A stretch of DNA of 24,000 nucleotides from Actinomycetota bacterium. GTDB taxonomy: Bacteria; Actinomycetota; Thermoleophilia; Solirubrobacterales; Solirubrobacteraceae. Both the position numbers and the translations under genes were made by a program. A model generated the notes under the pieces. That model was not told the origin of the DNA, made no database searches, and was given only the letters and a program-made list of their open reading frames with translations. The DNA lies in the NCBI GenBank assembly GCA_005883215.1, contig VAYS01000016.1:27066-51065 (forward strand). Reading direction: 5' to 3'. This document shows positions 1,408 through 20,478 of the stretch, one piece after another. Numbering within the stretch: the stretch's first letter is position 1; each line of letters starts with the position of its first letter.

Positions 1408-1551
1408 AGCGGACCTCCACGAGCAGGGGTTGACGGATCTCGTAGAGGCCATCAGCGGCCAACGCCGCGGTTATGGAGCGAGCCTCATCGCTCGCCCGGC
1501 AGCCTATTCGACTGGCCACACGCGCGGATCGCCCCTAGGCTTGCGCCCAAC

Positions 1552-9605: not shown

Positions 9606-9678
<73 letters not shown>

Positions 9679-9683
9679 CTCGG

Positions 9684-9934: not shown

Positions 9935-10789
9935 ATGAGGCCCTACGCTGGAGCGGTGGCTGACGAGATCGATCTACGCGCGGCGCTTAACGCGGTGTCA
10001 GACGTGGTGCAGAACCGTCCCCGGCCCCTTCGGGAGTTCGACCAGATCTACATGAAGGCCGGCGACATGGTCATGCAGAGCGAATTCGTCGCCCGCTGGG
10101 CAGACCGCAAGCGGCTCGCCTTCATCGGAGACGGCGACGCCATCAGCGTCTGCACTGCATATCTCCACCACCGGGAGATACTGGGCTACGGGCCCTCGAA
10201 GGTCGTCGTGTACGACTTCGACGAGCGGATCTGCCAGGCGGTCGAGCGCTTCGCCGACAGCGAGCGACTCGAGAATCTCGACGCCGAGCTCTACAACTGC
10301 CTCGATGCGTTCCCAGGTCCGACGAACTTTGACTGCTTCTACACGAACCCGCCGTGGGGTGCGAGCAACGATGGCGAGAGCGTCAACGTCTTCGTGCAGC
10401 GCGGCATGGAGGCCGTCGGCTACCGGGGCGAGGGCATGGCGGTAGTAGCGGACGATCCAGAGCTCGAGTGGCCGAAGCGCGTGCTGGCGAACCTCCAGTC
10501 CTTCGTGCTCTCGCAGGGGTTCTTCGTCCAGAGGATGATGCCCCAGGTGCACAGCTACCACCTTGATGACGCCCCCGACCTGCGGTCTTGCAATGTCCTC
10601 CTCAAAGCCATGCCCGGAAACGAGCACTGCGCCGGCAGGAGCCTCGCGATCGACGACTCGAGCCGGCTCGAGGACTTCTATGGCCGCGGCAGCCATCTTC
10701 GCGTGCGCTACGTGCGCGAGCGGGCGCGGGTGGACTACGGCAAGGCCCACCAGGACGAGTACGAGCTCGAGTTGGTGGAGCAGCCGTGA
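9935..10789 (+). CDS. Class I SAM-dependent transferase of the DUF43/BpsA-like type, carrying an NPPW motif
   Basis: The ordered blocks FDQIYM..., LAFIGDGDAIS, VVVYDFDERI, FDCFYTNPPWG and FVQRGMEAV match my memory of the DUF43/BpsA layout (GDDDLTS, V-DIDER, FD-F-TDPP, F-RG). The stop overlaps the next gene's GTG as GTGA at 10786-10789. Confidence 0.6.
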   Translation: MRPYAGAVADEIDLRAALNAVSDVVQNRPRPLREFDQIYMKAGDMVMQSEFVARWADRKRLAFIGDGDAISVCTAYLHHREILGYGPSKVVVYDFDERICQAVERFADSERLENLDAELYNCLDAFPGPTNFDCFYTNPPWGASNDGESVNVFVQRGMEAVGYRGEGMAVVADDPELEWPKRVLANLQSFVLSQGFFVQRMMPQVHSYHLDDAPDLRSCNVLLKAMPGNEHCAGRSLAIDDSSRLEDFYGRGSHLRVRYVRERARVDYGKAHQDEYELELVEQP

Positions 10790-11352
10790 CCGACATCATT
10801 CACCCCGGCGCCGGCGTCGTCTTTATGAAGGTCGGGACGCACGCGCGCGAGCCGCTCCCCGAGATCATCGCCCGCAAGAGAAAGGAGATCGATGACGCTG
10901 GCTACGCGTTCTGGGGCTACGGCGGCAACACCTGCCATCCGCTCGCGAGCGTCCAACCGTTCGCACGCAACTTCACCCAACGAGACGGCGTCATCTATCT
11001 CGTCATGCAGCCGATGGAGTCAAAGCATTTCGCGATCCCTGATCGCGCGCACGAGTTCTCCGCCGACGGAGTCCGCTGGGAGAAGGTCCCGCCCGCGATC
11101 AACGTCCGCGGCTCGCGTTATGCCCTGGCGATCGACAGTCTCGACGAAGATGAGTTCGAACTGCCGCTCGGCCGGACCCGCGTAGCTGTCGGCAACAGCC
11201 TCGGCCGGCCCGGCGACCGCTACATCAGGGGCAGAGTCGACAAGGCCTGCCTCGAGGTCGTCGATGATGCTGCCGACGACGAGGCATCGTCCTTGCACAT
11301 CGGACTGGTGGCGCGGCTCGTCGAGCCCTACGCCGTGCTACTCAGGACGTAG
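10786..11352 (+). CDS. Uncharacterised protein and paralog of the 13371-14027 product; translationally coupled to the transferase
   Basis: GTG at 10786 lies in frame within track ORF 10588-11352. Shared blocks with the 13371-14027 protein are listed in the findings. It ends with a double stop, TAGTAG. Confidence 0.6.
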   Translation: MTDIIHPGAGVVFMKVGTHAREPLPEIIARKRKEIDDAGYAFWGYGGNTCHPLASVQPFARNFTQRDGVIYLVMQPMESKHFAIPDRAHEFSADGVRWEKVPPAINVRGSRYALAIDSLDEDEFELPLGRTRVAVGNSLGRPGDRYIRGRVDKACLEVVDDAADDEASSLHIGLVARLVEPYAVLLRT

Positions 11353-11355
11353 TAG

Positions 11356-12033
11356 CTAACCCGCAAGAACCCTTGGCGCGGCGGTCCGAAGCGACCCTAC
11401 GTAGCTCTCGAGCCCCACGAGCACTGCGTCCCGCTCCATCCCGCCGCCCGAGTAACACCCGAAGCAGATGCTCGCGGTCTTGTCGACTGCCGGCTCGGCG
11501 CAGACGGCGCGAGCGATCGCCTCGAACTCGCCCGGCTTCTCGTCGAGGACGCGGAGGAAGAGCTGCTCGAGGCAGCGCACTCGTGCGCCGAGCTGTGCAC
11601 AGGTCTCCGAGAGATCGATCAGGATCTCGAGCCCGCGCACCGCGCGTTTGTCACCGGTGTCGAGCAGCGCAATGTCGCGGCCCGCGGTCATCGCCGCAAG
11701 CTGGCTCTCGCCGACGTCCAACTCGAGTCCCGTCAGCTGAGCCAGCCGCTCGAGCTCAGCCGCCGCGCCGACCTCCGCGTTGGTCGGCTCGAGCACCGCT
11801 GCCTCGGAGAGGAATTCCGCGAGCGCCTTGCTGGCGGCAGCTTTGTCGCGCACCCTCGAGCCCCGCGCGATCGCGCTCGCGATCACGAAGCGCGCCGCAC
11901 CGAGAACACCGGCGGCGGGCTCCTCGCCGGCGTGCGGCCAAAACCTCTGTGCGATGCCGTAACAGGCGGCCTTCAGCAGGACATCATTGTCCACAGCGAC
12001 ATCGACTTGCGTGTCACCGTCACGAACGCTCAC
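11356..12033 (-). CDS. PIN-like domain protein and putative nuclease effector
   Basis: Acidic residues sit in a PIN-like arrangement: VAVDNDVLLKA near the N-terminus, DVGESQLAAM, and ALLDTGDKRAV. The GTG start overlaps the upstream stop as GTGA at 12030-12033. The assignment rests on motif layout only. Confidence 0.5.
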   Translation of the reverse strand: MSVRDGDTQVDVAVDNDVLLKAACYGIAQRFWPHAGEEPAAGVLGAARFVIASAIARGSRVRDKAAASKALAEFLSEAAVLEPTNAEVGAAAELERLAQLTGLELDVGESQLAAMTAGRDIALLDTGDKRAVRGLEILIDLSETCAQLGARVRCLEQLFLRVLDEKPGEFEAIARAVCAEPAVDKTASICFGCYSGGGMERDAVLVGLESYVGSLRTAAPRVLAG

Positions 12034-13046
12034 TCGCCGGCCTCGCCGAGGACGGCATCGAGGAAGTCGACTGCGTCGACAGGTTGATCACCGAGCTCGA
12101 GTTGCTGCCTAGCGATCGCGTTTACCTGAGTCCAAACGGGCCGCGCAGCGGCGTAGATGTTGCCGAGCGCCGCGTTCGCCGTCTGCCAATCCCCCGTCGA
12201 GTGCCCATAGGCGAGCGCCAGCGTTCCGGGCTCGATCCGTAGCTCCTGCGCAGACTCAAGCGCGGCGTGGGCCAGTGCACGGCCGTGCGCCCAGCCCGGG
12301 CCGGTCGCCAGGACCGTCGGCTCCGGCGCGCCGGTGAGAAGCTCAAGCGCGAAGGCATCCGCATCCCGCTCTTCCTCGTCACCACCGTTGGCCGCGGGCG
12401 TCTCGCCCTCGAGGTCGACTATTTGCCGGTCCGCTGCGACGTGCTCTAGCGCGATGTGGCCGAGCTCGTGTGCGAGGTAGAAGGCAATCGTCGCCGGATA
12501 TGCGGAGTCCTTGCCCAGCAGCACAGTCGAGCGGCCCCCGACCCTGACGGTCATTGCCGCCATGCGCTTCTGCGGCCAGGGGAAAACGCGCAGGTGAACA
12601 ACAGGCACGGCGAGGGCCCAGCTGAGGGAGAGGAGATCGACAAGCGTTACAAACTGCCCGCCGGAGGCGAGAACGTTCTCGCGCAGGTCGCGCGCCGCCA
12701 CGCCGGCGAGATCGCCCTCGGGCGGCGACGTTGCGCTGACCAGGATCGACGCGATCGCGCGCCCGAATGAGGTGATACCGGCGCGCTCGCGCTCGCTCTC
12801 ACCCGAGAGATGCTTAAAGCGGGCCTCTTCGCGCCATAGGAAGCGCGGCTCGTCGCGGTCATCGAGGAGCGAGTGCGGATCGAGGCCAAGGCGTCGCGCG
12901 ATGCCGAACCTGAGTTCGGCACGCGCCGACGCAGACGCCTCCGCATCCTCGGACCACCAATGCGGCCACGCCGCCGAGATCGCGCGGTCACTCAGGCCGA
13001 GCCCGCGCAGACGAAACCTCAAATCCCGCCCGCTCTCCCCGGTCAC
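12030..13046 (-). CDS. ImmA/IrrE-family (COG2856) zinc metallopeptidase
   Basis: HEXXH motif in FYLAHELGHIALEH and a downstream EERDADAFALELL block. I chose GTG at 13046 because it overlaps the upstream stop as GTGA at 13043-13046. Confidence 0.8.
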   Translation of the reverse strand: MTGESGRDLRFRLRGLGLSDRAISAAWPHWWSEDAEASASARAELRFGIARRLGLDPHSLLDDRDEPRFLWREEARFKHLSGESERERAGITSFGRAIASILVSATSPPEGDLAGVAARDLRENVLASGGQFVTLVDLLSLSWALAVPVVHLRVFPWPQKRMAAMTVRVGGRSTVLLGKDSAYPATIAFYLAHELGHIALEHVAADRQIVDLEGETPAANGGDEEERDADAFALELLTGAPEPTVLATGPGWAHGRALAHAALESAQELRIEPGTLALAYGHSTGDWQTANAALGNIYAAARPVWTQVNAIARQQLELGDQPVDAVDFLDAVLGEAGE

Positions 13047-13363
13047 GGCGCTGTCTCCTTCCCGAGCGTGGGCCACAGCTCGCGCGAGGCGAGAATGAGC
13101 TTCGCCAATGCCCTCGCGTGCTCCTCCGAACCGTCCCACGTCTCGCGGACGGCGTCCAGCACAGGATCCGTGGGGGCGGGCCTGCTAGCTGCATATTGTT
13201 GCATGTAGCTGCAGAGGCGGGCATAGGCCGCCGTGCGCCGGGAGGGCTGACGTTTCAACGCGCGCGAAACCGTTGCCTGGTGCACTCCAGCCCGTTCAGC
13301 AAGTACCTTTTGGCCGATTCCCTCGCGCTCGAGGAGATCGGCGATCAAGTCCCTCAGGTCCAT
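13043..13363 (-). CDS. XRE-family helix-turn-helix transcriptional regulator
   Basis: MDLRDLIADLLEREGIGQKVLAERAGVHQATVSRALKR. I chose ATG at 13363, because the longer track ORF (to 13483) would overlap the divergent gene. Confidence 0.75.
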   Translation of the reverse strand: MDLRDLIADLLEREGIGQKVLAERAGVHQATVSRALKRQPSRRTAAYARLCSYMQQYAASRPAPTDPVLDAVRETWDGSEEHARALAKLILASRELWPTLGKETAP

Positions 13364-13370
13364 CTGGTCT

Positions 13371-14027
13371 ATGCATGATGATGCACGAGTGGCGCCTCGT
13401 GGCGATACCCTGCCGCACTCGTTTTGCTGGACCCGCTTCGGGACGGAGGCCGGCGAGACAATCCAGGCGATACTCGCGCGCAAGGAAGCCGAGCGTCAGG
13501 CGAGCGGCGGCGTGTTCTTCTGGGGCATCGGGAACTCGATCGCGCCCGCAGTCGCGGAGCTAGTGCGGCGCGCCGATGAGCCGGAGGTCCTGTTCAGCCC
13601 GATCAGGAGCCGGCCTCGGCACGTCGACGTTGCGCCCGGGTGCGTCGTGCGATGGACGTTGGCCGAAGCGCTCTCAGGAGAGGCGTTCGAGCTGCCGTCG
13701 CACGCCAGCATCACCAGTCGGTGGGACCCGGCCCGGCCGGGAGTGGCACGCTACGCGCTCGTGTGCTCATCGGCCTTGCCGCTCGAGATCGCCGCCGCGG
13801 AGCGGCTGAACTTCGGCGCACTGCGCAACCTTCGCAGCGGTGCTCCGCTAGGCGCCTCGCAGGTCACCGCCGTCGTACGTCGAGCAGACGCGTGCCGCGG
13901 CGGCAGCGAGTATTCCGTGGCGTTCCGCGCAGCGCTGGTGGCACCGTACTTCGTTCGCTTGCGCCGGCCGATGCCGCTGGACGATCACGTCCACTCCCCT
14001 CGATCCCTTCGCAAACATGGCAGCTAA
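13371..14027 (+). CDS. Uncharacterised protein and paralog of the 10786-11352 product
   Basis: 218-aa ORF that is collinear with the 10786-11352 product over its full length. Its ATG lies only 7 nt from the divergent XRE start. Confidence 0.6.
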   Translation: MHDDARVAPRGDTLPHSFCWTRFGTEAGETIQAILARKEAERQASGGVFFWGIGNSIAPAVAELVRRADEPEVLFSPIRSRPRHVDVAPGCVVRWTLAEALSGEAFELPSHASITSRWDPARPGVARYALVCSSALPLEIAAAERLNFGALRNLRSGAPLGASQVTAVVRRADACRGGSEYSVAFRAALVAPYFVRLRRPMPLDDHVHSPRSLRKHGS

Positions 14028-14207
14028 ACGGCAGAAGTGTGGGCCCGTCTGGCCGGGCTCCGTAAGCGGTCAGCCGGGGCGCGAGCGCCGCTACTAGCGC
14101 TGCCCGCCGACAGGTACCGCCCGCGTTAGCGCTGAGAAGTTCTTGTTGCTGCGGGAACGGCGACGTGCCCTGCTCGAGCGCAGCACGCAGGGCGAGCGCA
14201 TCGATCG

Positions 14208-14360
14208 CTAGCTGTGCGTTGGCAGGGTTGCCTCGACCTCGCCAGAGCGCCAGGCCTCGATGAAGTCGCTCGGGCTCCCGCCCGTGAGCTCTTCGAATCT
14301 GCCTACGCGATCGCCGAGGCCCGTCGGCTCGTCGTCCTCGGTGATCCTGGTTTTCAGCGA
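14208..14360 (-). pseudogene. Possible remnant of a small antitoxin-like gene with no usable start codon
   Basis: A minus-strand frame reads ...TRITEDDEPTGLGDRVGRFEELTGGSPSDFIEAWRSGEVEATLPTHS* and has strongly G/C-rich third positions. Back to the upstream in-frame TAG there is no ATG, GTG or TTG. The LTGGSP..F...G..V pattern recalls Xre/MbcA/ParS-type (DUF2384) antitoxin C-termini. Confidence 0.25.
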
Positions 14361-14500
14361 GCAATGGAGGCGCTGCGTGCTGCCGATACATAGAGTATAA
14401 AGGCTACATAAGGCATATTGGCGATATCGAACATATACTGGACATTGGCGCTAGGGAGGCGTAACCTCTTCCCCACGCACGTCCTCGAAGGAGGCTTCCC

Positions 14501-14689
14501 ATGGCAGTTGCAGCACCACCGAGTACCTTGCGTCGCGGCGAGGCCGCCGAGCGACTCGGCGTGCACCCGAACACGCTGGCCGGTTGGGTCAAGCGCGGCT
14601 GGCTGACGGGAGTGACGATGCCGAACGGAGAAGTGCGCTTCCGCGAAGAGGAGATCAATGCTCTGCGCGAGCGCATTTACGCCCGGTAA
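14501..14689 (+). CDS. Excisionase/MerR-type helix-turn-helix DNA-binding protein
   Basis: GAAGGAGG lies 6 nt upstream of the ATG. The sequence LRRGEAAERLGVHPNTLAGWVKRGWL...VRFREEEINAL is typical of the HTH_17/excisionase family. Confidence 0.75.
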   Translation: MAVAAPPSTLRRGEAAERLGVHPNTLAGWVKRGWLTGVTMPNGEVRFREEEINALRERIYAR

Positions 14690-14749
14690 GCGCCCCATCC
14701 GGCATCTCGCCTAGCGTTACCGGAGGCTCCGCTCGGCGGAGCCTCCGGC

Positions 14750-15370
14750 ATGTCCGAACACGACAACGACGGCCATTACTGGGAGCCTGCTCCCGAAGAT
14801 GATCTGCGCCAAGGCGACCTGCTGTTCAACGTTCCCATCGCCTTGATGCCCCAGCATCCGCGCTTTGTGCTCGGCGAAGGCGAGGAGGTGCACACCGAGA
14901 CGTACGACGACTATCCGGAGAATGCGCCCTCGTCGGAGATCGTTGTCGAGGCCGCCTTCGGGGCTTTGGGGATGGTGGTGACGCCCACGTGCCACATCTC
15001 CGAGGCCGAGAAGGATGAGGACATCGTCGCTGTGGTGCCGGTGCAGCCTCTGAACCTCGTCATCCCGGATCTCAACCAGGCACGCAGCATTCGGGCCGGC
15101 AAGAGCGTGCCACTACACCTGTTCCCGCTGCCGCGCACCGAACTCGGCGAGGGGATCCTTGCGTTCGACGGCGCTGCGCTACTTGACCGACCGGCGTCCA
15201 TGCTCAAGGACAACCTGCGCGACTACCGCCGCCTCGGCCTGTACGTCGAGGCTCGCATCGCACTCCGCAAGGCTATGGCGCGCTTTTGGGCGCGGGGGAG
15301 CGCGGATGAGAGCATCGAGAGCTCGATGCGGCCACAAATCGAGAAGCGGCCACTGGAGGACCTGGAATAG
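14750..15370 (+). CDS. Hypothetical protein with no recognised family
   Basis: 206-aa ORF with G/C-rich third positions, lying 60 nt downstream of the HTH gene. It has an acidic N-terminus and the blocks LRQGDLLFNVP and GMVVTPTCHIS. Confidence 0.55.
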   Translation: MSEHDNDGHYWEPAPEDDLRQGDLLFNVPIALMPQHPRFVLGEGEEVHTETYDDYPENAPSSEIVVEAAFGALGMVVTPTCHISEAEKDEDIVAVVPVQPLNLVIPDLNQARSIRAGKSVPLHLFPLPRTELGEGILAFDGAALLDRPASMLKDNLRDYRRLGLYVEARIALRKAMARFWARGSADESIESSMRPQIEKRPLEDLE

Positions 15371-15438
15371 AGCGCAGTGGCCGCAATCGATGAGCTCGGT
15401 CGAGTCATGCAGCGCGGGGGCTCACCTAGCCGGGCGAC

Positions 15439-15810
15439 TCAGGGTGGCGGATCGCCCCGGATCGGCAGCAGCGGAACACCGCTGGCGGTGAATCCGTGGC
15501 GGGGCCGGCGCCGGCGACGCGGTGACCGCCACGGTGGCGACGGATCCATAGGCTCGTCCGCGCGTGCCAGTGCAAGCGCGACAGCACCGGAATCGAAACG
15601 CAGACGTGCGCGCGGCCCGGCACCCAAACGGATGGCACCAAGGGGACCGGCGTGGTCGTAGACCCACGAGCGGGTGACCCCGAATCGCCGGGCCACCTCG
15701 GCGGCGTCGATGAACGGTTGGGGCTCGGTCGGACGATCGCGCAGTAGCTCGACCACACGCCGAGCGACGATCTCGGCGAGCTCCTCGAGCTGGGCGTCGG
15801 TCAGGTCCAT
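15439..15810 (-). CDS. Excisionase-type helix-turn-helix DNA-binding protein with an Arg-rich tail
   Basis: Read from the internal ATG at 15810: MDLTDAQLEELAEIVARRV...FIDAAEVARRFGVTRSWVYDH...LRF. It lies 31 nt downstream of the integrase stop. Confidence 0.6.
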   Translation of the reverse strand: MDLTDAQLEELAEIVARRVVELLRDRPTEPQPFIDAAEVARRFGVTRSWVYDHAGPLGAIRLGAGPRARLRFDSGAVALALARADEPMDPSPPWRSPRRRRRPRHGFTASGVPLLPIRGDPPP

Positions 15811-15841
15811 GCCGACGCAGGTGGACTGGAGTAAAGCGCGC

Positions 15842-16948
15842 TCAACGGGCGGCCCGCCGTGGCACGCTGGAGGCACGTTGAGCGCGGGCGCGGATGATGG
15901 CTTCTTCGGCGCTGACCCGGTCGGCCGGGTCGAACTCATCGAAGACACCGGCGTAGGTGTTCAGGCACATCTGGGGGGAGTGGCCGAGCTGGCGGGCGAC
16001 CTCGATGACGGTCTGGCCCTCGTGGATGAGGAGCGTGGCGAAGCTGCCGCGCAGGTCACGCGGCCGGACGCCCTTGGGCAGGCCGGTAGCCTCGGCCGTG
16101 GGCTTGAAGACCCGCCGGTGCCAGTTCTTCCAGTCGTGGCTGGTCCACACGCCCTGTTCGGCTGGGAACACGAGGCCCTTGGATGCCCGCAGACCGGACG
16201 CCATGCGCCAGTCGCGCAGGTCGTCGGCCAGGGGCTTGAGCAGTCGCACCGTCCGCTGGCGCCCGCCGAGCTTGGACGCTCGGATGAGCAGCGTGCGCTC
16301 GCGCATCTGCGGCCAACAGAGGGTGACCGCCTCTGACTGGGGGCGAAGACCAGCGTAGGCGAGCACACTGATCAGCGTGGCGTCGCGTAGGCGGCCGTGG
16401 ACGAGCAGGTGGCTGCGCATCGCCTCGACCTGGACGGGCGGGATGACGATCGGCTCGCGGGTGCGGCGCTGGGATGGCTTTCGCACCAGCCGCACCGGGT
16501 TGGCGGGGATCTCTTCGTCGCGGGCGGCGCGCTGAAGGATGGCCTGGAGCACAGTCAGGGCCTTGACAATCGTCGGGCCTCGGTCGCCGTCGCGGACGAG
16601 CGCGGCGATGAAGTCCTCGACCACCGACGGCTTGATCTCCCGCAGCTGCAGATCGCCGAGGCGCGGACGGATGCGCAGGTCGAGCTGGGTGGCGTACACC
16701 GCAAGCGTGCCCTCGGAGAGCCGGGTCTCGGCGTAGCTCTCCCACCATTCGGTCGCGTAGTCGCCGAGGCGCTGGGTGCCGCGGGGGGCGAGCTCGTCGC
16801 CCAGAGCGATGCGGCGCTTGATCTCGCCGTCGAAGCGGTTGGCGTCCTGGGCACGATCGAACGAGCGGGCGCGGGAGCGCCCGCCCTGGCGCCAGCGGAC
16901 CTTGTAGCGGGTGCTGCCGTCGGGCCGCTGGCTGCGTTCGACGCTCAT
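15842..16948 (-). CDS. int: Tyrosine recombinase / phage-type integrase
   Basis: N-terminal SAM-like domain (YKVRWRQGGR...) and catalytic-domain blocks (YAGLRPQSEA, LRGSFATLLIHEG, LGHSPQMCLNTYAGV with the terminal Tyr). ATG at 16948 overlaps the upstream stop as ATGA. Confidence 0.9.
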   Translation of the reverse strand: MSVERSQRPDGSTRYKVRWRQGGRSRARSFDRAQDANRFDGEIKRRIALGDELAPRGTQRLGDYATEWWESYAETRLSEGTLAVYATQLDLRIRPRLGDLQLREIKPSVVEDFIAALVRDGDRGPTIVKALTVLQAILQRAARDEEIPANPVRLVRKPSQRRTREPIVIPPVQVEAMRSHLLVHGRLRDATLISVLAYAGLRPQSEAVTLCWPQMRERTLLIRASKLGGRQRTVRLLKPLADDLRDWRMASGLRASKGLVFPAEQGVWTSHDWKNWHRRVFKPTAEATGLPKGVRPRDLRGSFATLLIHEGQTVIEVARQLGHSPQMCLNTYAGVFDEFDPADRVSAEEAIIRARAQRASSVPRRAAR

Positions 16949-17259
16949 GGCACCCTTGCCTCGCGCCGTCGGCGGACGCGCTCGCGGAAGCTGTAGTCGG
17001 GCTTTGGCCGCTCGGGGACGGTGGGGTTGCCCCGGGGGATGAGGTCGATGGGCGACGTCGGCCTGACGCGCGTGCGCTCGAGCCACTCCCTCACGCCGGA
17101 TTTGGTGACCCGCAGCCTGCCGCAGGGCTTGAACGCCTCGAGCTCGCCGCGGGCGATCGCCCGGTAGATCGCATCCCGCGCCAGGCCGACCATCTCCCCC
17201 ACCTGATCAACGGTGAACAGCGGCTCGATCGGGGCCTCGCTGCTCTTCGCCCGCACCAC
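16945..17259 (-). CDS. Excisionase-like helix-turn-helix protein and candidate recombination directionality factor
   Basis: LFTVDQVGEMVGLARDAIYRAIARGELEAFKPCGRLRVTKSGVREWLE. I chose GTG at 17259. The ORF stays open up to ATG 17538, which overlaps the M48 gene stop as ATGA, so the longer form cannot be excluded. Confidence 0.6.
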   Translation of the reverse strand: MVRAKSSEAPIEPLFTVDQVGEMVGLARDAIYRAIARGELEAFKPCGRLRVTKSGVREWLERTRVRPTSPIDLIPRGNPTVPERPKPDYSFRERVRRRREARVP

Positions 17260-17534
17260 GCGCAGCCGGCCGCCAGTGCACGGGCGGCGAGCGGTTCGCC
17301 CATCGGGCTCGGCGGGGCTTGTGGCGGATTGGGGCAACGTGGCGATGGCGTTGATGCTCGGTCTGTTCTGCCGTTTGCGGGGTCGGCCGCCGGCCGACCC
17401 TAAGTGTCCCCAGGCGCCGGGGGCGGGTTCTGTCAAGGCCAGCCGCAGGCTGGCCGTACCCCGCCCGTGGGCGGGGTTGACGGGTTCCGCCCCCGGTGCC
17501 ATAGGGCTCGGATGAACGAGCGGCGGACGGAGGC

Positions 17535-18401
17535 TCATGAACCTTCCCCGGCGCTGTAGGCGATGAGACGGTCGATGCGAAGCTCGGTGGGCGGGTGGCT
17601 AACGGCGCGCAGCCAGGCGAACGGGATCGGCTGATCGAAGGGAAGGCCCTCGTTCTCAAGTGACTGGGCCAAGTCCTCTGCGTAGCCGAGGCGAGCGGCG
17701 AACAGGTCGGCCTGGTACTCGCGGTGGCGCAAGTAGGCGCCCCAGATCGGCCGAACGAGGAACAGAGCGAGCTCGCCGGTGAGCAGCATCACCAGGAACG
17801 CCGACGCGAACCCCAGCAGGCCGGCTCCGCGGTCGGGCCATGTGACGCGGAGCGGGATGACCATTCGATCGAGGGCGACGATCAGGCTGCCGTCGATGCT
17901 GTTGAGGTGGCCGAGCTCGTGGGCGAGCGTGGCCTCGAGCCAGCGGCTCTCGATCGCCCCGCGGTGGAGGATCAGCGTTCGGCCGCGAACCCGGGCATTG
18001 ACCTCGGGCGAGTCGAGCACCCACCAGCTCCCCGGCCGGCGGATGCCGGGGCGGCTCTGGATCACGGTGTCCAGAGCATCTTCGACGGCGATGCGCTCGC
18101 GCTCGGATGGCCGGCGCGCACCGGTGCTCTGAACGAACCACCAGCCGCTTCCGATCGCGTACGGGAGCGCCAGGACCGACCAGGCCAGTGGTGCGAACCA
18201 CGCGACCAGGCCCCAAGTGCCGGCGCCGGGGCTGGCGTGGTGGCCGCTGAGCAGCAGGACGATCGCGGCGAGCAGGTAGACGAACAGCCCGCGGGCGAAG
18301 CCCAATGCGACCTGGAGCGCGAGCGTGAGGACGTAGAGCACCACCCAGCCCAGCGGCCGCTCCTTGGGCACGACGGAGGCGATCGGCTGCGCGGCGCTCA
18401 A
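17535..18401 (-). CDS. Membrane-bound M48-family (HtpX-like) zinc metallopeptidase
   Basis: N-terminal TM helices, HEXXH in LAHELGHL, and the downstream blocks REYQAD and HPPTELRIDRL that are typical of M48. The TTG start overlaps the upstream stop as TTGA. Confidence 0.75.
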   Translation of the reverse strand: MSAAQPIASVVPKERPLGWVVLYVLTLALQVALGFARGLFVYLLAAIVLLLSGHHASPGAGTWGLVAWFAPLAWSVLALPYAIGSGWWFVQSTGARRPSERERIAVEDALDTVIQSRPGIRRPGSWWVLDSPEVNARVRGRTLILHRGAIESRWLEATLAHELGHLNSIDGSLIVALDRMVIPLRVTWPDRGAGLLGFASAFLVMLLTGELALFLVRPIWGAYLRHREYQADLFAARLGYAEDLAQSLENEGLPFDQPIPFAWLRAVSHPPTELRIDRLIAYSAGEGS

Positions 18402-19825
18402 AACGGAAGCCCTCCTCCCCGCTCCGACCTACACCGCCCGGCCGGGACATCGTCGCCACGCTCGGATGACGTGGGCGCCTCGCGCGCGTGCGCGCGCGAA
18501 CCCGTAGGAGTGGCCGCCGAGTACTGAGGCACCGCGTCCTCGAGGGGGGCCGAGACCGTGGGCGCCTGGGCGACACGGACCTTCATCGCGCGCCCCTGGG
18601 CGATCACGAACGCCTCGCCGCGATCCAGGCCGCGGACCTCGTTGGGGTCGACCTTGAAGTGATGGGCCCGCCAGGCGGTCCCGTTGCCGGTGGGCCCAGC
18701 GTCGGCGATCTCGTGGGTGCGCTCAAGGGCCTGGCGGGTACCGGCGAGCGCCACCACGGCGTCAGGGGTGTTGACCCGGTGACAGACGACCGTCTCGACG
18801 CTGGCCAGGATCCGCGCCGCCTCCTCGGCCTCGCCCATCCCGGCTGCAACCTGGGGGGCGAGGATCAGAGCCGTGTTGAAGGCGCGGGCCTGCTCGATCC
18901 GGGCGGCCATCGACCCCGACGAGGCCAGTGCGCTGAACTCGTCGACAATCAGCACGCAGAAGCGCTCGCGGGCTTTACGAGCGGTGAAGTAGTGGGCGAA
19001 GTCCTCAAACAGGAAGCGCGCCAGGCCCCGAGCCTCCTCGCGCAGCGCCAAGGTGTCGAGCAGCAGATAAGCGGCCCGGCTGTCGTCCCAGCCCCAGCCG
19101 CCGTCTAGCCGACCGTCGAGCTGCCCGAAGAACGCCTCATAGCGCAGGCGCACGCCGCGGACCTGTTCGGCGGTCAGCGCCACGGCCGCGCTTGCGGGAC
19201 CGTGAACGGAGCGCAGGTGGCGCAGCTCCATCCGCGACAACGCCTCCGCCGAGCAGCGCGGGGGCCCGTCCGGATGCCGGCAGACCAGGGTGAGCACGGC
19301 CTTGGCCACATCCCGGTACCAGGCCGCCGGACCCTCCGCGGCGTAGTCGATGACCTCGGTGAGCCGCGCCTGGACATCGCCCGCTCCACCGCGCCAACCG
19401 TCGAACGGCTCGTCCGGGAACACCCGTGCTGTGCGGCCCGCACACTTCATCAGCCCCACGAAGCGCGCCGCGGTCCGGCGATCACCTTTCCCGTCCAAGA
19501 AGAACACGGGCGCGTCGTTGACCTGGGCCAGGCAATAGGCGATCCGCAACGCCGTCTCGGTCTTGCCGGCGCCGGTGGCCCCCATCACCAGCAGGTGGTG
19601 GGTCATGCGCCGCGGTGAGAGCACGACCAGACCGCCGTGGCAGGGAAGTGCCGGCTCGCCTCGCAGCCGGCGTCCCAGGACGATGCCCGCTTCCTCGCCG
19701 TCATACGCCCTCAGCGGCACGTCTACCTCCGGCCGCGGAAGGACATTCGGGCGACCGCGCCACCCCCGCGCGCGCCAGGGGAAAATCCCGCGTACTGCCG
19801 GCCTTGACGAGGCCACGGCGCTCAC
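18398..19825 (-). CDS. Type IV coupling-protein-like ATPase (TraD/TraG/VirD4 family)
   Basis: Walker A LLVMGATGAGKTE and Walker B CVLIVDEFSAL, in a layout like T4CP/TraM-recognition-domain proteins. GTG at 19825 overlaps the upstream stop as GTGA at 19822-19825. Confidence 0.7.
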   Translation of the reverse strand: MSAVASSRPAVRGIFPWRARGWRGRPNVLPRPEVDVPLRAYDGEEAGIVLGRRLRGEPALPCHGGLVVLSPRRMTHHLLVMGATGAGKTETALRIAYCLAQVNDAPVFFLDGKGDRRTAARFVGLMKCAGRTARVFPDEPFDGWRGGAGDVQARLTEVIDYAAEGPAAWYRDVAKAVLTLVCRHPDGPPRCSAEALSRMELRHLRSVHGPASAAVALTAEQVRGVRLRYEAFFGQLDGRLDGGWGWDDSRAAYLLLDTLALREEARGLARFLFEDFAHYFTARKARERFCVLIVDEFSALASSGSMAARIEQARAFNTALILAPQVAAGMGEAEEAARILASVETVVCHRVNTPDAVVALAGTRQALERTHEIADAGPTGNGTAWRAHHFKVDPNEVRGLDRGEAFVIAQGRAMKVRVAQAPTVSAPLEDAVPQYSAATPTGSRAHAREAPTSSERGDDVPAGRCRSERGGGLPF

Positions 19826-20478
19826 CGTGCGCCTCCCAGCGGCGGGAGCTCGCGGAGGTGGAGCTTCGGCCACTCGCCGCCGGCGGCCAGGCGCTCGAGC
19901 TGGCGGCGCGCCGCCGGCGCGCAGAAGTAGACGAGCGCATCGAAGCGGTCGGAGAGGTCATCGAGGATCTGGATCATGCGCGGCTGGGACTTCTGCGTGA
20001 GCTCGACCTCGACCGCGTGGCGCTGGCCGTCGAGCGCGATCACCGCGTCGGGCAGGTGCTCTCCCCGACGCGCCGTCCGGCCGAGCTCCCGCTCGCACAC
20101 CCACTCGGCCGCGGGTGCGAGCCGATCGATGTGAAGGCGCACCTCGTTGACCGCGGCGACGTGCGCCAGCAGCCCGACCCGCGGTCGCCAGACCCGAAAC
20201 CCGGTGCCGGCCAGGCGCTGCCCCGCCGGCGTCAGCCACACCCACGCGGGATGATCCGCGAGCACCGGCCTGGCCTCGATCAGGCCCGCCTCACGCAGCC
20301 GCCGGACCAGGCGCTGCGTGCTGCGCCGATGATGCCCGAGAAGAAGATCAAGGTGATCCAGCCGCGCGCCGTACTGCTCCGAGACCCAGGCCAGCGCGCC
20401 TAGATCTGATGCGAGGGGCATCTGCCCCGCCTCGTGGCGAGGGCCAGATACGGCTGCGCGTGCGGCGAGCGCTGACAT
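19822..20478 (-). CDS. Replication-relaxation family protein (N-terminal wHTH plus PD-(D/E)xK-like core)
   Basis: STQRLVRRLREAGLIEAR...VWLTPAG, followed by HLPDAVIALDG...AVEVELTQKS. This matches the Replic_Relax family layout. Confidence 0.6.
   Translation of the reverse strand: MSALAARAAVSGPRHEAGQMPLASDLGALAWVSEQYGARLDHLDLLLGHHRRSTQRLVRRLREAGLIEARPVLADHPAWVWLTPAGQRLAGTGFRVWRPRVGLLAHVAAVNEVRLHIDRLAPAAEWVCERELGRTARRGEHLPDAVIALDGQRHAVEVELTQKSQPRMIQILDDLSDRFDALVYFCAPAARRQLERLAAGGEWPKLHLRELPPLGGAR

What the first reader, a model, noticed from the sequence alone, without database searches (positions are those of the whole stretch)
9935..14027. Compact six-gene cassette directly downstream of tRNA-Thr: candidate undescribed defence or addiction system
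Six genes fill 4.1 kb with almost no intergenic DNA.
- The transferase and the first unknown gene overlap as GTGA at 10786-10789.
- That unknown gene ends TAGTAG at 11350-11355, and the convergent PIN-like gene's stop begins at 11356.
- The PIN-like, ImmA and XRE genes are chained by two GTGA overlaps (12030-12033 and 13043-13046).
- The XRE start (13363) and the divergent paralog start (13371) are 7 nt apart.

The gene content is a DUF43/BpsA-like SAM-type transferase with NPPW, two copies of an unrecognised roughly 190-220-aa protein, and an HTH/Zn-peptidase/PIN-like trio. I know of no named system with this combination. Its position next to a tRNA and an integrative element fits a defence or accessory island. 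The packing suggests one functional unit rather than chance neighbours. Convergent genes with no room for a terminator would also imply antisense overlap of the transcripts.
Basis: partly seen in the sequence, partly recalled or inferred. Interest (0 to 1): 0.8.

Follow-up and report, generated by a model that had tools for sequence, protein, structure and literature searches.

The report
Conserved mobile transferase–peptidase–PIN gene cassette
The six tightly packed genes are a real unit that has moved between at least seven bacterial phyla; it combines a regulated RNase-type toxin with an unusual alkyl-transferase and two copies of a protein family that no database describes, and it is most likely an uncharacterised defence or addiction system.

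Summary
The six genes recur in the same order in about 75 loci from Actinomycetota, Acidobacteriota, Chloroflexota, Proteobacteria, Planctomycetota and other phyla, and on five plasmids. Their flanking genes are not conserved.

- **Transferase (9935-10789):** it matches Pfam BpsA_C. It lacks BpsA's GDDD motif (GDGD here) and has NPPW where BpsA has DPPE.
- **Two unknown proteins (10786-11352 and 13371-14027):** they are true paralogs (hhalign 96%). The family has about 1,100 clusters, no Pfam, NCBIfam, PADLOC or PHROG model, and no significant fold match.
- **11356-12033:** a PIN/VapC fold with its acidic residues intact.
- **12030-13046:** an HExxH…E peptidase of the ImmA/CapP type.
- **13043-13363:** a small XRE-type HTH protein. 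Its divergent promoter carries TGCAT repeats spaced 10 bp apart, and this operator is conserved across phyla.

The HTH–peptidase–PIN trio is a three-component toxin–antitoxin type that has been predicted before. Its fixed link to the transferase and the paralog pair is new.

My best model is inferred, not shown: a stress-triggered peptidase removes the repressor, the PIN toxin is induced, and the transferase and its partner provide a protective or marking modification. No PADLOC model or paper describes the combination. Defence function is untested.

The parts
9606..9679 (+). tRNA-Thr(GGT). This is context: an island insertion hotspot 255 nt upstream of the cassette.
   Evidence: ARAGORN and Rfam. 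No second copy of its 3' end lies in the window. A tRNA lies within 1.5 kb of the cassette edge in 10 of 60 homologous loci. One is the same tRNA-Thr(GGT), in Bradyrhizobium embrapense (L043).
9935..10789 (+). G1: a 284-aa SAM-type N-alkyl transferase, BpsA_C-like. Its motifs are GDGD (65-68), DFD (94-96), TNPPWG (137-142) and HxYHLDD (206-212), and it has an acidic C-terminal tail, DEYELELVE.
   Evidence: Pfam BpsA_C at 4.8e-18, above the cut-off. The closest solved structures are BpsA 5xnc and 2qm3, at profile E 2e-13, followed by METTL5 at 8e-4. The motifs are invariant in 35-76 homologs. Identity is 57-85% across phyla.
10786..11352 (+). G2: a 188-aa protein of an undescribed family, translationally coupled to G1. 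Its invariant residues look like those of an enzyme: K15, H19, E22, WGYGGxTCHP (43-52), S79, H81 and D152-K153-x-C155.
   Evidence: There are 2,404 homologs and none has a Pfam domain. No Pfam, PADLOC, NCBIfam or PHROG hit was found. The AlphaFold model has pLDDT 87. It has no significant Foldseek match in PDB or BFVD; the best hits are YTH domains at E 0.25 and TM 0.25-0.31. G1 and G2 are fused in frame in L016.
11356..12033 (-). G3: a 225-aa PIN/VapC-fold nuclease with a C-terminal helical extension that carries conserved cysteines (C154, C178, C190, C193). It is the predicted effector or toxin.
   Evidence: The model has pLDDT 94.5. Foldseek against PDB gives probability 1.00 to PAE2754 and to VapC toxins, with target-normalised TM 0.66-0.73. 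D15, D17, E87, D106, E109, D128 and E156 are conserved in at least 95% of 76 homologs. PHROG 15597 matches at 1.2e-6.
12030..13046 (-). G4: a 338-aa zinc metallopeptidase with H193-E194-x-x-H197 and E226. The spacing matches CapP and IrrE. It has an aromatic-rich N-terminal extension of about 95 aa.
   Evidence: PADLOC capP at 3.4e-8, with weaker RmrA and Lit hits. Pfam M78 at 1e-3 is below the cut-off. Precomputed Peptidase_U49 hits on homologs are weak. PHROG 18577 matches at 3.4e-49 over the full length. RefSeq names the Agrobacterium homolog an ImmA/IrrE family metallo-endopeptidase. The catalytic residues are conserved in 71 homologs. CapP's ligands are H96, E97, H100 and E129.
13043..13363 (-). 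G5: a 106-aa basic XRE/Cro-type HTH protein, the predicted repressor. It is the first gene of the G5-G4-G3 operon.
   Evidence: Many HTH families match below their cut-offs; the best is HTH_31 at 1e-4. PHROG transcriptional regulator matches at 7e-6. The family's median pI is 9.4. The gene is absent from about a third of loci.
13372..13385 (.). Operator-like site TGCATGATGATGCA: TGCAT repeated at 10-bp spacing. It overlaps the G6 start codon and lies in the 7-nt divergent junction.
   Evidence: The pattern occurs 3 times in the window against 0.3 expected. The same motif sits at the G5/G6 junction in about 18 loci from several phyla and almost nowhere else in those 16-kb loci. A 5-mer repeated at 10-11 nt is found at the junction in 33 of 47 divergent-type loci, against 16% of control windows and 1 of 24 loci without XRE.
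13190..13213 (.). Second cluster, TGCATATTGTTGCATGTAGCTGCA: three repeats at 10-bp spacing inside the G5 coding region. It may be an auxiliary operator.
   Evidence: Comparable second sites lie 200 nt and 225 nt from the G6 start in L006 and L024. Only three loci show it, so chance is not excluded.
13371..14027 (+). G6: a 218-aa basic paralog of G2 (pI 9.7). It keeps the Gly-rich WGxG loop but lacks G2's Cys-His and His residues. It is transcribed divergently from G5.
   Evidence: BLASTP E 6e-6 and hhalign 96%. There are 1,189 homologs and none has a Pfam domain. Invariant residues are listed. pI values are.

Best explanation
**Shown.** The window carries one copy of a horizontally mobile cassette of five genes plus one optional gene, arranged as two convergent operons.
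- Operon A (G1-G2) encodes a very conserved BpsA-like SAM-type N-alkyl transferase with an NPPW motif, plus a translationally coupled partner from an undescribed family.
- Operon B (G5-G4-G3) encodes an XRE-type HTH protein, an HExxH zinc peptidase of the ImmA/CapP type, and a PIN nuclease with an intact acidic site.
- G6, a basic paralog of G2 that lacks G2's conserved His and Cys residues, is transcribed divergently from G5. Their shared junction carries TGCAT repeats at 10-bp spacing.

**Inferred mechanism.**
- G5 binds the TGCAT operator and holds down both G6 and its own operon.
- A stress or infection signal activates the G4 peptidase, by analogy with ImmA, IrrE and CapP, which respond to DNA damage or single-stranded DNA. 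G4 then removes G5.
- The PIN nuclease (the toxin or effector) and G6 are induced.
- The convergent genes overlap at their 3' ends, so induced transcription of operon B reads antisense into G2-G1 and would lower their expression.
- G1 and G2 together place a methyl or larger alkyl group on an amino group of a conserved cellular target, most likely an RNA or DNA base. This mark protects the host from the PIN nuclease or labels self.
- G6 would be the non-catalytic counterpart that directs or licenses the effector side.

The net effect would be growth arrest or killing on infection, or on loss of the element. That makes it a defence or addiction module.
For: **Unit and mobility**
- 188 species-representative genomes encode G2.
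- In 74 loci with enough flank, G1, G2, G3, G4 and G6 are all present in the same order.
- Identity matrices of the five genes correlate, with Spearman 0.38-0.65.
- The flanks share no recurrent gene; the maximum is 4 of 140 ORFs for any one family.
- The Pseudomonas koreensis plasmid keeps the same gene set with the G6/G5-G4-G3 block inverted.
- The cassette occurs on five plasmids. It sits in Replic_Relax/HTH_17 integrative elements both here and in L091. A tRNA lies close by in 10 of 60 loci. GC content dips to 0.64-0.69 against 0.70-0.75 on either side.

**Parts**
- G3 has a PIN fold with conserved acidic residues.
- G4 has HExxH plus a glutamate at +33, as in CapP, and matches capP at 3.4e-8.
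- The operator is conserved.
- G1 motifs are invariant.
- G1 and G2 are coupled by a 4-nt overlap in 37 of 76 loci and are fused in L016.
- G2 and G6 are paralogs.
- The convergent 3' ends overlap in 63% of loci, and no terminator signal above chance was found.

**Precedent**
- HTH–DUF955–PIN three-component toxin–antitoxin systems have been predicted.
- CapH/CapP-like pairs, one of them next to a vapC-like gene, regulate defence operons.
Against: - No experiment or known-system model links these genes to defence. PADLOC gives only weak single-domain hits.
- The substrate of G1 is unknown. Its closest characterised relative makes a polyamine, not a nucleic-acid mark.
- The G2/G6 fold has no significant match, so any writer-adaptor or reader role is a guess.
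- About a third of loci have no XRE gene and no TGCAT operator. The repressor switch is therefore not essential to the core.
- In Sphingomonas loci a mercury-resistance insertion separates G2 from G3. In the P. koreensis plasmid the blocks are not convergent. Antisense coupling therefore cannot be obligatory.
- Some flanks are ordinary housekeeping genes.
Confidence: 0.4

Rival explanations
1. A DNA restriction-modification-like system. G1 is an N6-adenine (NPPW) DNA methyltransferase and G2 is its separate target-recognition subunit. G6, the paralogous recognition subunit, directs the PIN nuclease to unmodified DNA. G5 acts as the controller (C) protein that delays nuclease expression.
For: - NPPW is the motif IV typical of amino-methyltransferases. 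G1 gives weak PADLOC MTase_II and mad2 hits and a METTL5 hit at 8e-4.
- The convergent layout of M against C-R, and tandem operator repeats in front of the C-like gene, resemble C-protein-controlled R-M systems. That resemblance rests on my own knowledge.
- G2 and G6 are paralogs, one in each operon.
- PIN-like genes have been noted beside HsdM/HsdS without a restriction enzyme (PMC5499597).
Against: - G1 and G2 are 57-85% identical across phyla. That is unusually uniform for DNA-specificity determinants.
- G1 groups with BpsA, not with DNA methyltransferases.
- G2 is near-neutral and looks like an enzyme.
- PIN/VapC proteins of this type are usually RNases.
- No DNA-binding fold was recognised in G2 or G6.
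Confidence: 0.15
2. The cassette is only the immunity or induction switch of an integrative or conjugative element or a prophage, like ImmR-ImmA of ICEBs1. The other genes are unrelated cargo that happen to lie beside it.
For: - In the window it lies between tRNA-Thr and an integrase, excisionase, FtsK-like and Replic_Relax element.
- L091 shows a similar element.
- G4 and G3 match PHROG families.
- The order XRE-peptidase-third gene with a divergent partner mirrors immR-immA-int and xis. That comparison rests on my own knowledge.
Against: - The same five or six genes stay together in about 75 loci whose flanks differ and mostly lack integrases.
- G1 and G2 are the most conserved members and always accompany the trio.
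- tblastn found no match in 50,697 phage records for G2 or G4.
Confidence: 0.08
3. An enzymatic (type VII-like) toxin-antitoxin system. G1-G2 neutralise the PIN toxin, or G6, by covalently alkylating the protein itself. The peptidase and XRE protein tune expression.
For: - NPPx motifs also serve protein glutamine methylation, as in HemK/PrmC. That rests on my own knowledge.
- BpsA chemistry passes the alkyl group through acidic residues of a C-terminal tail, and G1 keeps such a tail.
- G1 divergence correlates best with G3 and G4, at 0.65 and 0.64.
Against: - G1 and G2 are far more conserved than G3. Mean pairwise identities are 0.64 and 0.60 against 0.37. That suggests a conserved target outside the cassette.
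- There is no direct evidence for a protein substrate.
Confidence: 0.1
4. A small-molecule pathway. G1-G2 make an alkylated polyamine or nucleotide that serves as a signal, a protectant or a toxin. G6 senses it, and the trio is an attached regulator or addiction module.
For: - The closest characterised relative of G1 is a polyamine aminopropyltransferase.
- Very high conservation fits a small, invariant substrate.
- G2 and G6 share a Gly-rich loop that precedes a helix, as in nucleotide- or phosphate-binding sites.
Against: - D159 of the essential GDDD motif is glycine in G1, and the acceptor-site D225 is asparagine.
- The BpsA N-terminal domain is missing.
- The distribution is patchy and horizontal, about 0.1% of species, and the genes are fixed to a PIN toxin. 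That is not what a metabolic operon looks like.
Confidence: 0.1
5. The genes are chance neighbours or a housekeeping operon with no joint function.
For: Some loci lie among ordinary metabolic genes.
Against: - The gene order is conserved across phyla while the flanks vary.
- Divergence is correlated.
- The cassette is carried on plasmids.
- The set survives a rearrangement.
- It is found in only 188 of 185,579 species representatives.
Confidence: 0.02

Closest known systems
Predicted three-component HTH(Xre)–DUF955/COG2856 peptidase–PIN toxin-antitoxin systems (Makarova et al. 2009, PMC2701414; Matelska et al. 2017, PMC5499597: DUF4411, COG2405, PIN_14, PIN_20, PIN_26)
   Same: The operon runs HTH, then HExxH peptidase, then PIN-like nuclease, with overlapping genes. 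The PIN site is intact. The genomic context is mobile.
   Different: - G3 matches none of the Pfam PIN or DUF4411 models.
- The peptidase is not fused to an HTH domain and has a long N-terminal extension.
- The trio is always joined to a BpsA-like transferase and to two paralogs of an unknown family.
- A third of loci have no HTH gene at all.
- These three-component systems are themselves only predictions.
CapH/CapP (and ImmR/ImmA, DdrO/IrrE) repressor–peptidase switches
   Same: - A small HTH repressor gene sits next to a zinc peptidase that has HExxH plus a glutamate 33 residues after the first His (G4 H193/E226; CapP H96/E129).
- G4 matches capP at 3.4e-8.
- The regulated gene is divergent, and the shared promoter region carries an operator.
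- Lau et al. note a vapC-like gene beside a CapH-CapP-like gene upstream of a DISARM system.
   Different: - CapP is peptidase–HTH–GAF with the peptidase at the N-terminus. G4 has about 95 extra N-terminal residues and only about 110 residues after the site, too few for HTH plus GAF.
- Pfam M78 is below its cut-off.
- The activating signal and cleavage of G5 are untested.
BpsA, N4-bis(aminopropyl)spermidine synthase (PF01861; PDB 5xnc, 6j27)
   Same: The catalytic Rossmann domain matches, at profile E 2e-13. The motif-I type G-D-x-D is shared, and so is an acidic C-terminal tail.
   Different: - G1 has GDGD where BpsA has GDDD, so the essential D159 is glycine.
- G1 has NPPW where BpsA has DPPE, so D225 is asparagine.
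- G1 has no N-terminal domain.
- It occurs in mesophilic soil bacteria, on mobile DNA, fixed to a partner protein and a toxin module.
Controller (C-protein) regulated type II restriction–modification systems
   Same: A modification gene lies convergent to a small-HTH-plus-nuclease operon, with tandem operator repeats at the HTH gene's promoter. The comparison rests on my own knowledge of R-M organisation.
   Different: There is no recognisable DNA methyltransferase family or restriction fold. A peptidase sits between the regulator and the nuclease. The transferase is far more uniform than DNA-specific enzymes usually are.
MADS (methylation-associated defence system; PADLOC mad1-mad8)
   Same: G1 gives a weak hit to mad2 (2.8e-6) and G5 a weak hit to mad1 (2.5e-3).
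   Different: The hits cover only the generic methyltransferase core and the HTH. No other mad gene is present. The gene number and content differ.

Membership tests
BpsA (branched-chain polyamine synthase) | Match to the BpsA_C catalytic domain above Pfam's cut-off | tested here: met
   The score is 65.7 bits against a cut-off of 27, E 4.8e-18. The profile against PDB gives 2e-13 to 2qm3 and 5xnc.
BpsA (branched-chain polyamine synthase) | GDDD motif with D159 and D160, which position the aminopropyl group of dcSAM (PMC12979288) | tested here: not met
   G1 has G65-D66-G67-D68. The alignment puts G67 opposite D159. G67 is at least 90% conserved in 35 homologs. The motif's role is described.
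BpsA (branched-chain polyamine synthase) | Acceptor-site D225, in TDPPE | tested here: not met
   G1 has T137-N138-P139-P140-W141, and N138 is invariant.
BpsA (branched-chain polyamine synthase) | N-terminal domain of about 120 aa before the catalytic domain | tested here: not met
   G1 residues 17-167 align to BpsA residues 127-268. G1 has only 16 residues before that stretch.
BpsA (branched-chain polyamine synthase) | Acidic C-terminal cluster that carries the aminopropyl group | tested here: inconclusive
   G1 ends in DEYELELVEQP, and the consensus is DEYxLELLE. Whether this tail carries an alkyl group cannot be tested here.
N6-adenine / amino-group methyltransferases ((D/N)PP(Y/F/W) class) | Motif IV NPPW following a SAM-binding Rossmann motif | tested here: met
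   TNPPWG is invariant. One divergent homolog has NPPY. METTL5 matches at 8e-4 over this region.
N6-adenine / amino-group methyltransferases ((D/N)PP(Y/F/W) class) | Methyl transfer to a nucleic-acid base or to glutamine | not testable with these tools
   This needs biochemistry or modification-aware sequencing.
PIN / VapC nucleases | PIN fold | tested here: met
   Foldseek probability is 1.00. The hit to 1v8o has E 5.7e-4 and target-normalised TM 0.68-0.73. Many VapC structures also match. The model's pLDDT is 94.5.
PIN / VapC nucleases | Conserved acidic residues of the active site | tested here: met
   D15, D17, E87, D106, E109, D128 and E156 are at least 95% conserved in 76 homologs.
PIN / VapC nucleases | Match to a curated PIN-family sequence model | tested here: not met
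   No Pfam PIN or DUF4411 hit appeared even at E up to 1. The family profile has no PDB sequence hit.
ImmA/IrrE/CapP (M78) peptidases | HExxH plus a downstream zinc-binding glutamate | tested here: met
   H193, E194, H197 and E226 are conserved in 71 homologs. The spacing is the same as CapP's H96/E129.
ImmA/IrrE/CapP (M78) peptidases | Score above the curated family cut-off | tested here: inconclusive
   Pfam M78 scores 19.3 bits against a cut-off of 22. PADLOC capP matches at 3.4e-8. Weak Peptidase_U49 (Lit) hits appear on homologs. RefSeq names the homolog ImmA/IrrE.
ImmA/IrrE/CapP (M78) peptidases | HTH and GAF domains after the peptidase (CapP, IrrE) | tested here: not met
   Only about 110 residues follow E226 and no HTH or GAF hit was found. 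The CapP architecture is given.
ImmA/IrrE/CapP (M78) peptidases | Cleaves the neighbouring HTH repressor on a damage signal | not testable with these tools
   Only the adjacency and the operator were seen.
HTH–peptidase–PIN three-component toxin-antitoxin (predicted class) | The three genes are co-oriented and co-transcribed | tested here: met
   4-nt overlaps lie at 12030-12033 and 13043-13046. The overlaps are conserved in homologous loci. The class is described.
Named anti-phage systems in PADLOC-DB 2.0 | The cassette proteins match the models of one system | tested here: not met
   G2, G3 and G6 have no hit. G1, G4 and G5 give only weak generic-domain hits to different systems.
YTH / PUA-like modified-base readers (considered for G2 and G6) | Significant structural match to the fold | tested here: inconclusive

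The most novel reading that the evidence does not exclude
G1-G2 write a previously unknown mark on RNA or DNA. It would be a methyl, aminopropyl or aminocarboxypropyl group placed on a base amino group by BpsA-type chemistry. G2 and G6 would then represent a new protein fold that recognises the marked or unmarked site: G2 guides the writer, and G6 licenses the PIN nuclease. That would be a new class of modification-based self/non-self immunity, spread across at least seven phyla.
Probability: 0.12. Interest if true: 0.9.

Novelty: new variant of a known kind. Interest (0 to 1): 0.62.

Why it matters
If the model holds, three things follow.
- A BpsA-type transferase would be tied to a biological-conflict system for the first time.
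- A family of more than 1,000 protein clusters with no annotation and no recognisable fold would gain a function.
- The HTH–peptidase–PIN toxin–antitoxin type, long predicted, could be tested in a cassette that has a clear operator, natural variants without the HTH gene, and a natural G1-G2 fusion.

The cassette is small (4.1 kb) and self-contained. It also occurs in cultured Bradyrhizobium, Sphingomonas, Rhodopseudomonas, Agrobacterium and Pseudomonas strains, so the experiments are practical.

Tried and rejected
- **Sequence profiles against PDB.** The profiles of G2/G6 and of G3, and the G4 sequence, all gave no hit.
- **Pfam on the G2/G6 superfamily.** Scanning every member at E up to 10 returned only noise.
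- **Domain fusions.** Ten long members of the G2/G6 superfamily were checked. None was informative; one carries a ROS/MucR zinc finger.
- **att site.** I looked for a second copy of the tRNA-Thr 3' end to delimit the island. None lies in the window.
- **Phage records.** tblastn with G2 and with G4 found no match, although G4 matches PHROG 18577.
- **Literature.** Searches for DUF43, PF01861 or BpsA_C in a defence context, and for aminopropyltransferase with anti-phage, found nothing relevant. One broad search was uninformative.
- **Terminators.** No terminator or sigma-70 promoter consensus above chance was found inside the cassette.
- **Ideas considered from motifs and dropped.** I considered G2 as a DJ-1/PfpI-like hydrolase, a thioredoxin-like protein or a SAM decarboxylase. 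None of those abundant PDB folds was matched above noise; only a few thioredoxin-fold entries appeared, at E 1 or worse and TM 0.18 or less.
- **Flank census caveat.** My home-made ORF caller for the flank census is imperfect in high-GC DNA. The census is therefore qualitative only.

Full report
**1.

The region 9935-14027 contains six ORFs:
- G1, 9935-10789, plus strand
- G2, 10786-11352, plus strand
- G3, 11356-12033, minus strand
- G4, 12030-13046, minus strand
- G5, 13043-13363, minus strand
- G6, 13371-14027, plus strand

GTGA lies at 10786-10789. TAGTAG lies at 11350-11355, directly followed by the minus-strand stop CTA. Minus-strand GTGA lies at 12030-12033 and at 13043-13046. Seven bases separate the divergent starts of G5 and G6. 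tRNA-Thr(GGT) lies at 9606-9679.

A public gene caller produced the same six products on a near-identical soil-metagenome contig (L086). A protein identical to G3 is deposited from an Actinobacteria MAG.

**2. The six genes are one conserved, mobile unit.**

*Distribution.* G2 has 2,404 database homologs. A pattern scan of one genome per species found 188 carriers among 185,579 species. They include Actinomycetota, Acidobacteriota, Chloroflexota, Alpha-, Gamma- and Deltaproteobacteria, Planctomycetota, a Chthoniobacterales genome and Dormiibacterota.

*Gene order.* tblastn of the six window proteins against 80 of these loci found G1, G2, G3, G4 and G6 together in every locus with enough flank, 74 in all. 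In 73 of the 74, G1-G2 lie convergent to G3-G4; in the remaining locus (L058) G1 is on the opposite strand.

*Packing.* The tight packing recurs in homologous loci. G1 and G2 overlap by 4 nt in 37 of 76 loci. The convergent G2 and G3 ends overlap or touch in 63% of loci.

*Co-inheritance.* Pairwise identity matrices of the five core genes correlate, with Spearman 0.38-0.65. That is what genes inherited and transferred together would show.

*Flanks.* The flanks are not conserved. Among 140 flanking ORFs from about 40 loci, no Pfam family occurs more than four times. The flanks hold a scatter of:
- restriction-modification and helicase genes, an integrase-core (rve_3) domain, a resolvase and a HEPN protein;
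- ordinary metabolic genes.

Curated neighbourhoods show PvuII, VapBC, a ThiF cluster, GIY-YIG, FRG, Zeta toxin, ISL3 transposases and a T4SS coupling protein. One neighbourhood has plain sigma-factor and kinase genes.

*Mobile carriers.* Five plasmids carry the cassette. On Pseudomonas koreensis p1 the block G6/G5-G4-G3 is inverted relative to G1-G2 but still adjacent. That argues for functional linkage rather than frozen synteny.

*Context in the window.* The cassette lies between tRNA-Thr and an integrative element that has an excisionase-like HTH_17 gene, a tyrosine integrase, an M48 peptidase, an FtsK/TraD-like ATPase and a Replic_Relax gene. L091 shows the cassette inside a similar element. 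A tRNA gene lies within 1.5 kb of the cassette edge in 10 of 60 loci. In Bradyrhizobium embrapense it is again tRNA-Thr(GGT). GC content falls to 0.64-0.69 over 9.5-15.5 kb, against 0.70-0.75 on both sides.

**3. What each gene encodes.**

*G1* matches Pfam BpsA_C well above the cut-off. Its nearest solved relatives are the branched-chain polyamine synthases, at profile E 2e-13. The rRNA m6A methyltransferase METTL5 is a distant second at 8e-4. Even so, G1 is not a BpsA.
- The essential GDDD motif reads GDGD, with glycine in place of D159.
- The acceptor-site TDPPE reads TNPPW.
- The N-terminal domain is missing.
- An acidic C-terminal tail, which in BpsA carries the aminopropyl group, is retained.

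I therefore call G1 a BpsA-like N-alkyl transferase whose donor (SAM or dcSAM) and acceptor are unknown. NPPW points to an amino group on a planar acceptor such as a base.

*G2 and G6* have no Pfam, NCBIfam, PADLOC or PHROG match. They are paralogs. Together they define a superfamily of 1,121 clusters at 50% identity, almost all of them single-domain proteins of 190-260 aa.
- G2 is very conserved and carries enzyme-like invariant residues: K15, H19, E22, WGYGGxTCHP, S79, H81 and DKxC.
- G6 is basic (pI about 9-9.7). It keeps the Gly-rich loop but not the His and Cys residues.
- A confident G2 model (pLDDT 87) has no significant Foldseek match. YTH domains lead the list, but only at E 0.25 and TM about 0.3, and BFVD gives nothing.
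- In one Solirubrobacterales MAG, G1 and G2 are fused in frame. This fits a physical partnership. An assembly error cannot be excluded.

*G3* is a PIN/VapC-fold protein. The model has pLDDT 94.5, and Foldseek gives probability 1.00 with target-normalised TM up to 0.73. All acidic active-site residues are conserved, and a cysteine-bearing helical extension follows the PIN domain.

*G4* is a zinc peptidase with HExxH and a glutamate 33 residues after the first His, as in CapP. It matches PADLOC capP at 3.4e-8 and PHROG 18577 at 3.4e-49 over its full length. Pfam M78 stays just under its cut-off.

*G5* is a small basic HTH protein of the XRE/Cro type.

**4. A conserved operator.**

The G5/G6 junction carries TGCAT repeated at 10-bp spacing; in the window this is 13372-13385, TGCATGATGATGCA. 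The same motif sits at the junction in about 18 loci from different phyla and almost nowhere else in those 16-kb loci. Solirubrobacterales loci use ATTCAC repeats instead.

A 5-mer repeated at 10-11 nt occurs at the junction in 33 of 47 loci with the divergent layout. The figure is 16% for control windows, and 1 of 24 for loci that lack the XRE gene. The conserved Met-His start of G6 (ATGCAT) is part of the motif.

A second cluster of three repeats lies inside G5 at 13190-13213. L006 and L024 have comparable second sites.

**5. Variants.**

- About a third of loci, mainly Alphaproteobacteria, have no XRE gene. There G6, G4 and G3 form one operon. The core is therefore five genes and the repressor is an add-on.
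- Sphingomonas loci have a mercury-resistance insertion between G2 and G3.
- One locus has a diverged G1 with NPPY on the other strand.
- In one locus G1 is cut by an ISL3 element.

**6. Mechanism.**

The anatomy, the conservation and the operator are shown. The following steps are inferred.
- G5 represses G6 and its own operon through the TGCAT repeats.
- G4 removes G5 in response to a stress or infection signal, by analogy with ImmA, IrrE and CapP.
- PIN and G6 are then induced.
- Read-through from the induced operon would run antisense into G2-G1, because the convergent genes overlap and no terminator signal stands out.
- G1-G2 modify a conserved target, giving protection or a self-mark.

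The very high conservation of G1 and G2 points to an invariant substrate. I rate this composite model at about 0.4. Within it, the identity of the substrate is the weakest step. The rivals are given separately with their tests: DNA R-M-like, element immunity switch, enzymatic antitoxin, small-molecule pathway, and chance.

**7. Comparison with what is known.**

The HTH–peptidase–PIN trio belongs to a class predicted in 2009 and 2017. It resembles CapH/CapP-type regulators of defence operons. I found nothing for the combination with a BpsA-like transferase and the G2/G6 pair in PADLOC-DB 2.0, Pfam, NCBIfam, PHROGs or the searchable literature. RefSeq annotates the plasmid copies only as bis-aminopropyl spermidine synthase family protein, hypothetical proteins and ImmA/IrrE family metallo-endopeptidase. 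DefenseFinder could not be run.

**8. Verdict.**

This is a widespread, horizontally moving cassette with one already-predicted module and three components that have no description. Its function as a defence or addiction system is plausible but untested.

Noticed in passing
window 1436-1501 (-): A fluoride riboswitch (crcB motif, Rfam RF01734) scores 36 bits against a gathering score of 34.
   Followed up: no
window 14501-20478: An integrative, AICE-like element lies next to the cassette. It has an HTH_17 excisionase-like gene (14501-14689), a tyrosine integrase (ORF 15842-17086, minus strand), a second HTH_17 protein (16945-17538), an M48 peptidase (17535-18401), an FtsK/TraD-like ATPase (18398-19873) and a Replic_Relax gene (19822-20478). 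The attR copy of the tRNA end is not in the window.
   Followed up: partly
window 14028-14500: A 470-nt stretch has no called gene. It ends in an unusually AT-rich segment at about 14385-14450, just upstream of the HTH_17 gene. This may be a promoter or the junction between the cassette and the element.
   Followed up: no
window 13190-13213: Three TGCAT-type repeats at 10-bp spacing lie inside the XRE coding sequence, 160-180 nt from the main operator. L006 and L024 have similar second sites. DNA looping is possible, but with only three loci chance is not excluded.
   Followed up: partly
L016 7134-8567: G1 and G2 are joined in one 478-codon reading frame with no stop in a Solirubrobacterales MAG. 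In L036 a single in-frame stop separates them. This is either a natural fusion or an assembly error.
   Followed up: partly
L057 8631-11476 (also L054, L060): A mercury-resistance module (MerA-like reductase, a MerT-like membrane protein and a MerR-like regulator) is inserted between the convergent G2 and G3 in Sphingomonas loci.
   Followed up: partly
L084 10222-12136 and about 23 other loci: Alphaproteobacterial variant: there is no XRE gene, and G6 lies upstream of G4 and G3 on the same strand, 10-104 nt from G4.
   Followed up: partly
L085 9593-10198 (Pseudomonas koreensis plasmid p1): An extra 201-aa hypothetical gene follows G2. The G6 homolog appears as two tblastn pieces, which suggests a frameshift. 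The G5-G4-G3 block is inverted relative to the window.
   Followed up: no
L088 13416-16268: A ThiF (E1-like) gene with three small neighbours, and an HTH–M78 fusion gene, lie next to the cassette in one actinobacterial contig. This looks like another conflict system.
   Followed up: no
window 14750-15370 (+): A 206-aa ORF lies between the excisionase-like gene and the integrase. It has no Pfam or PHROG match.
   Followed up: no
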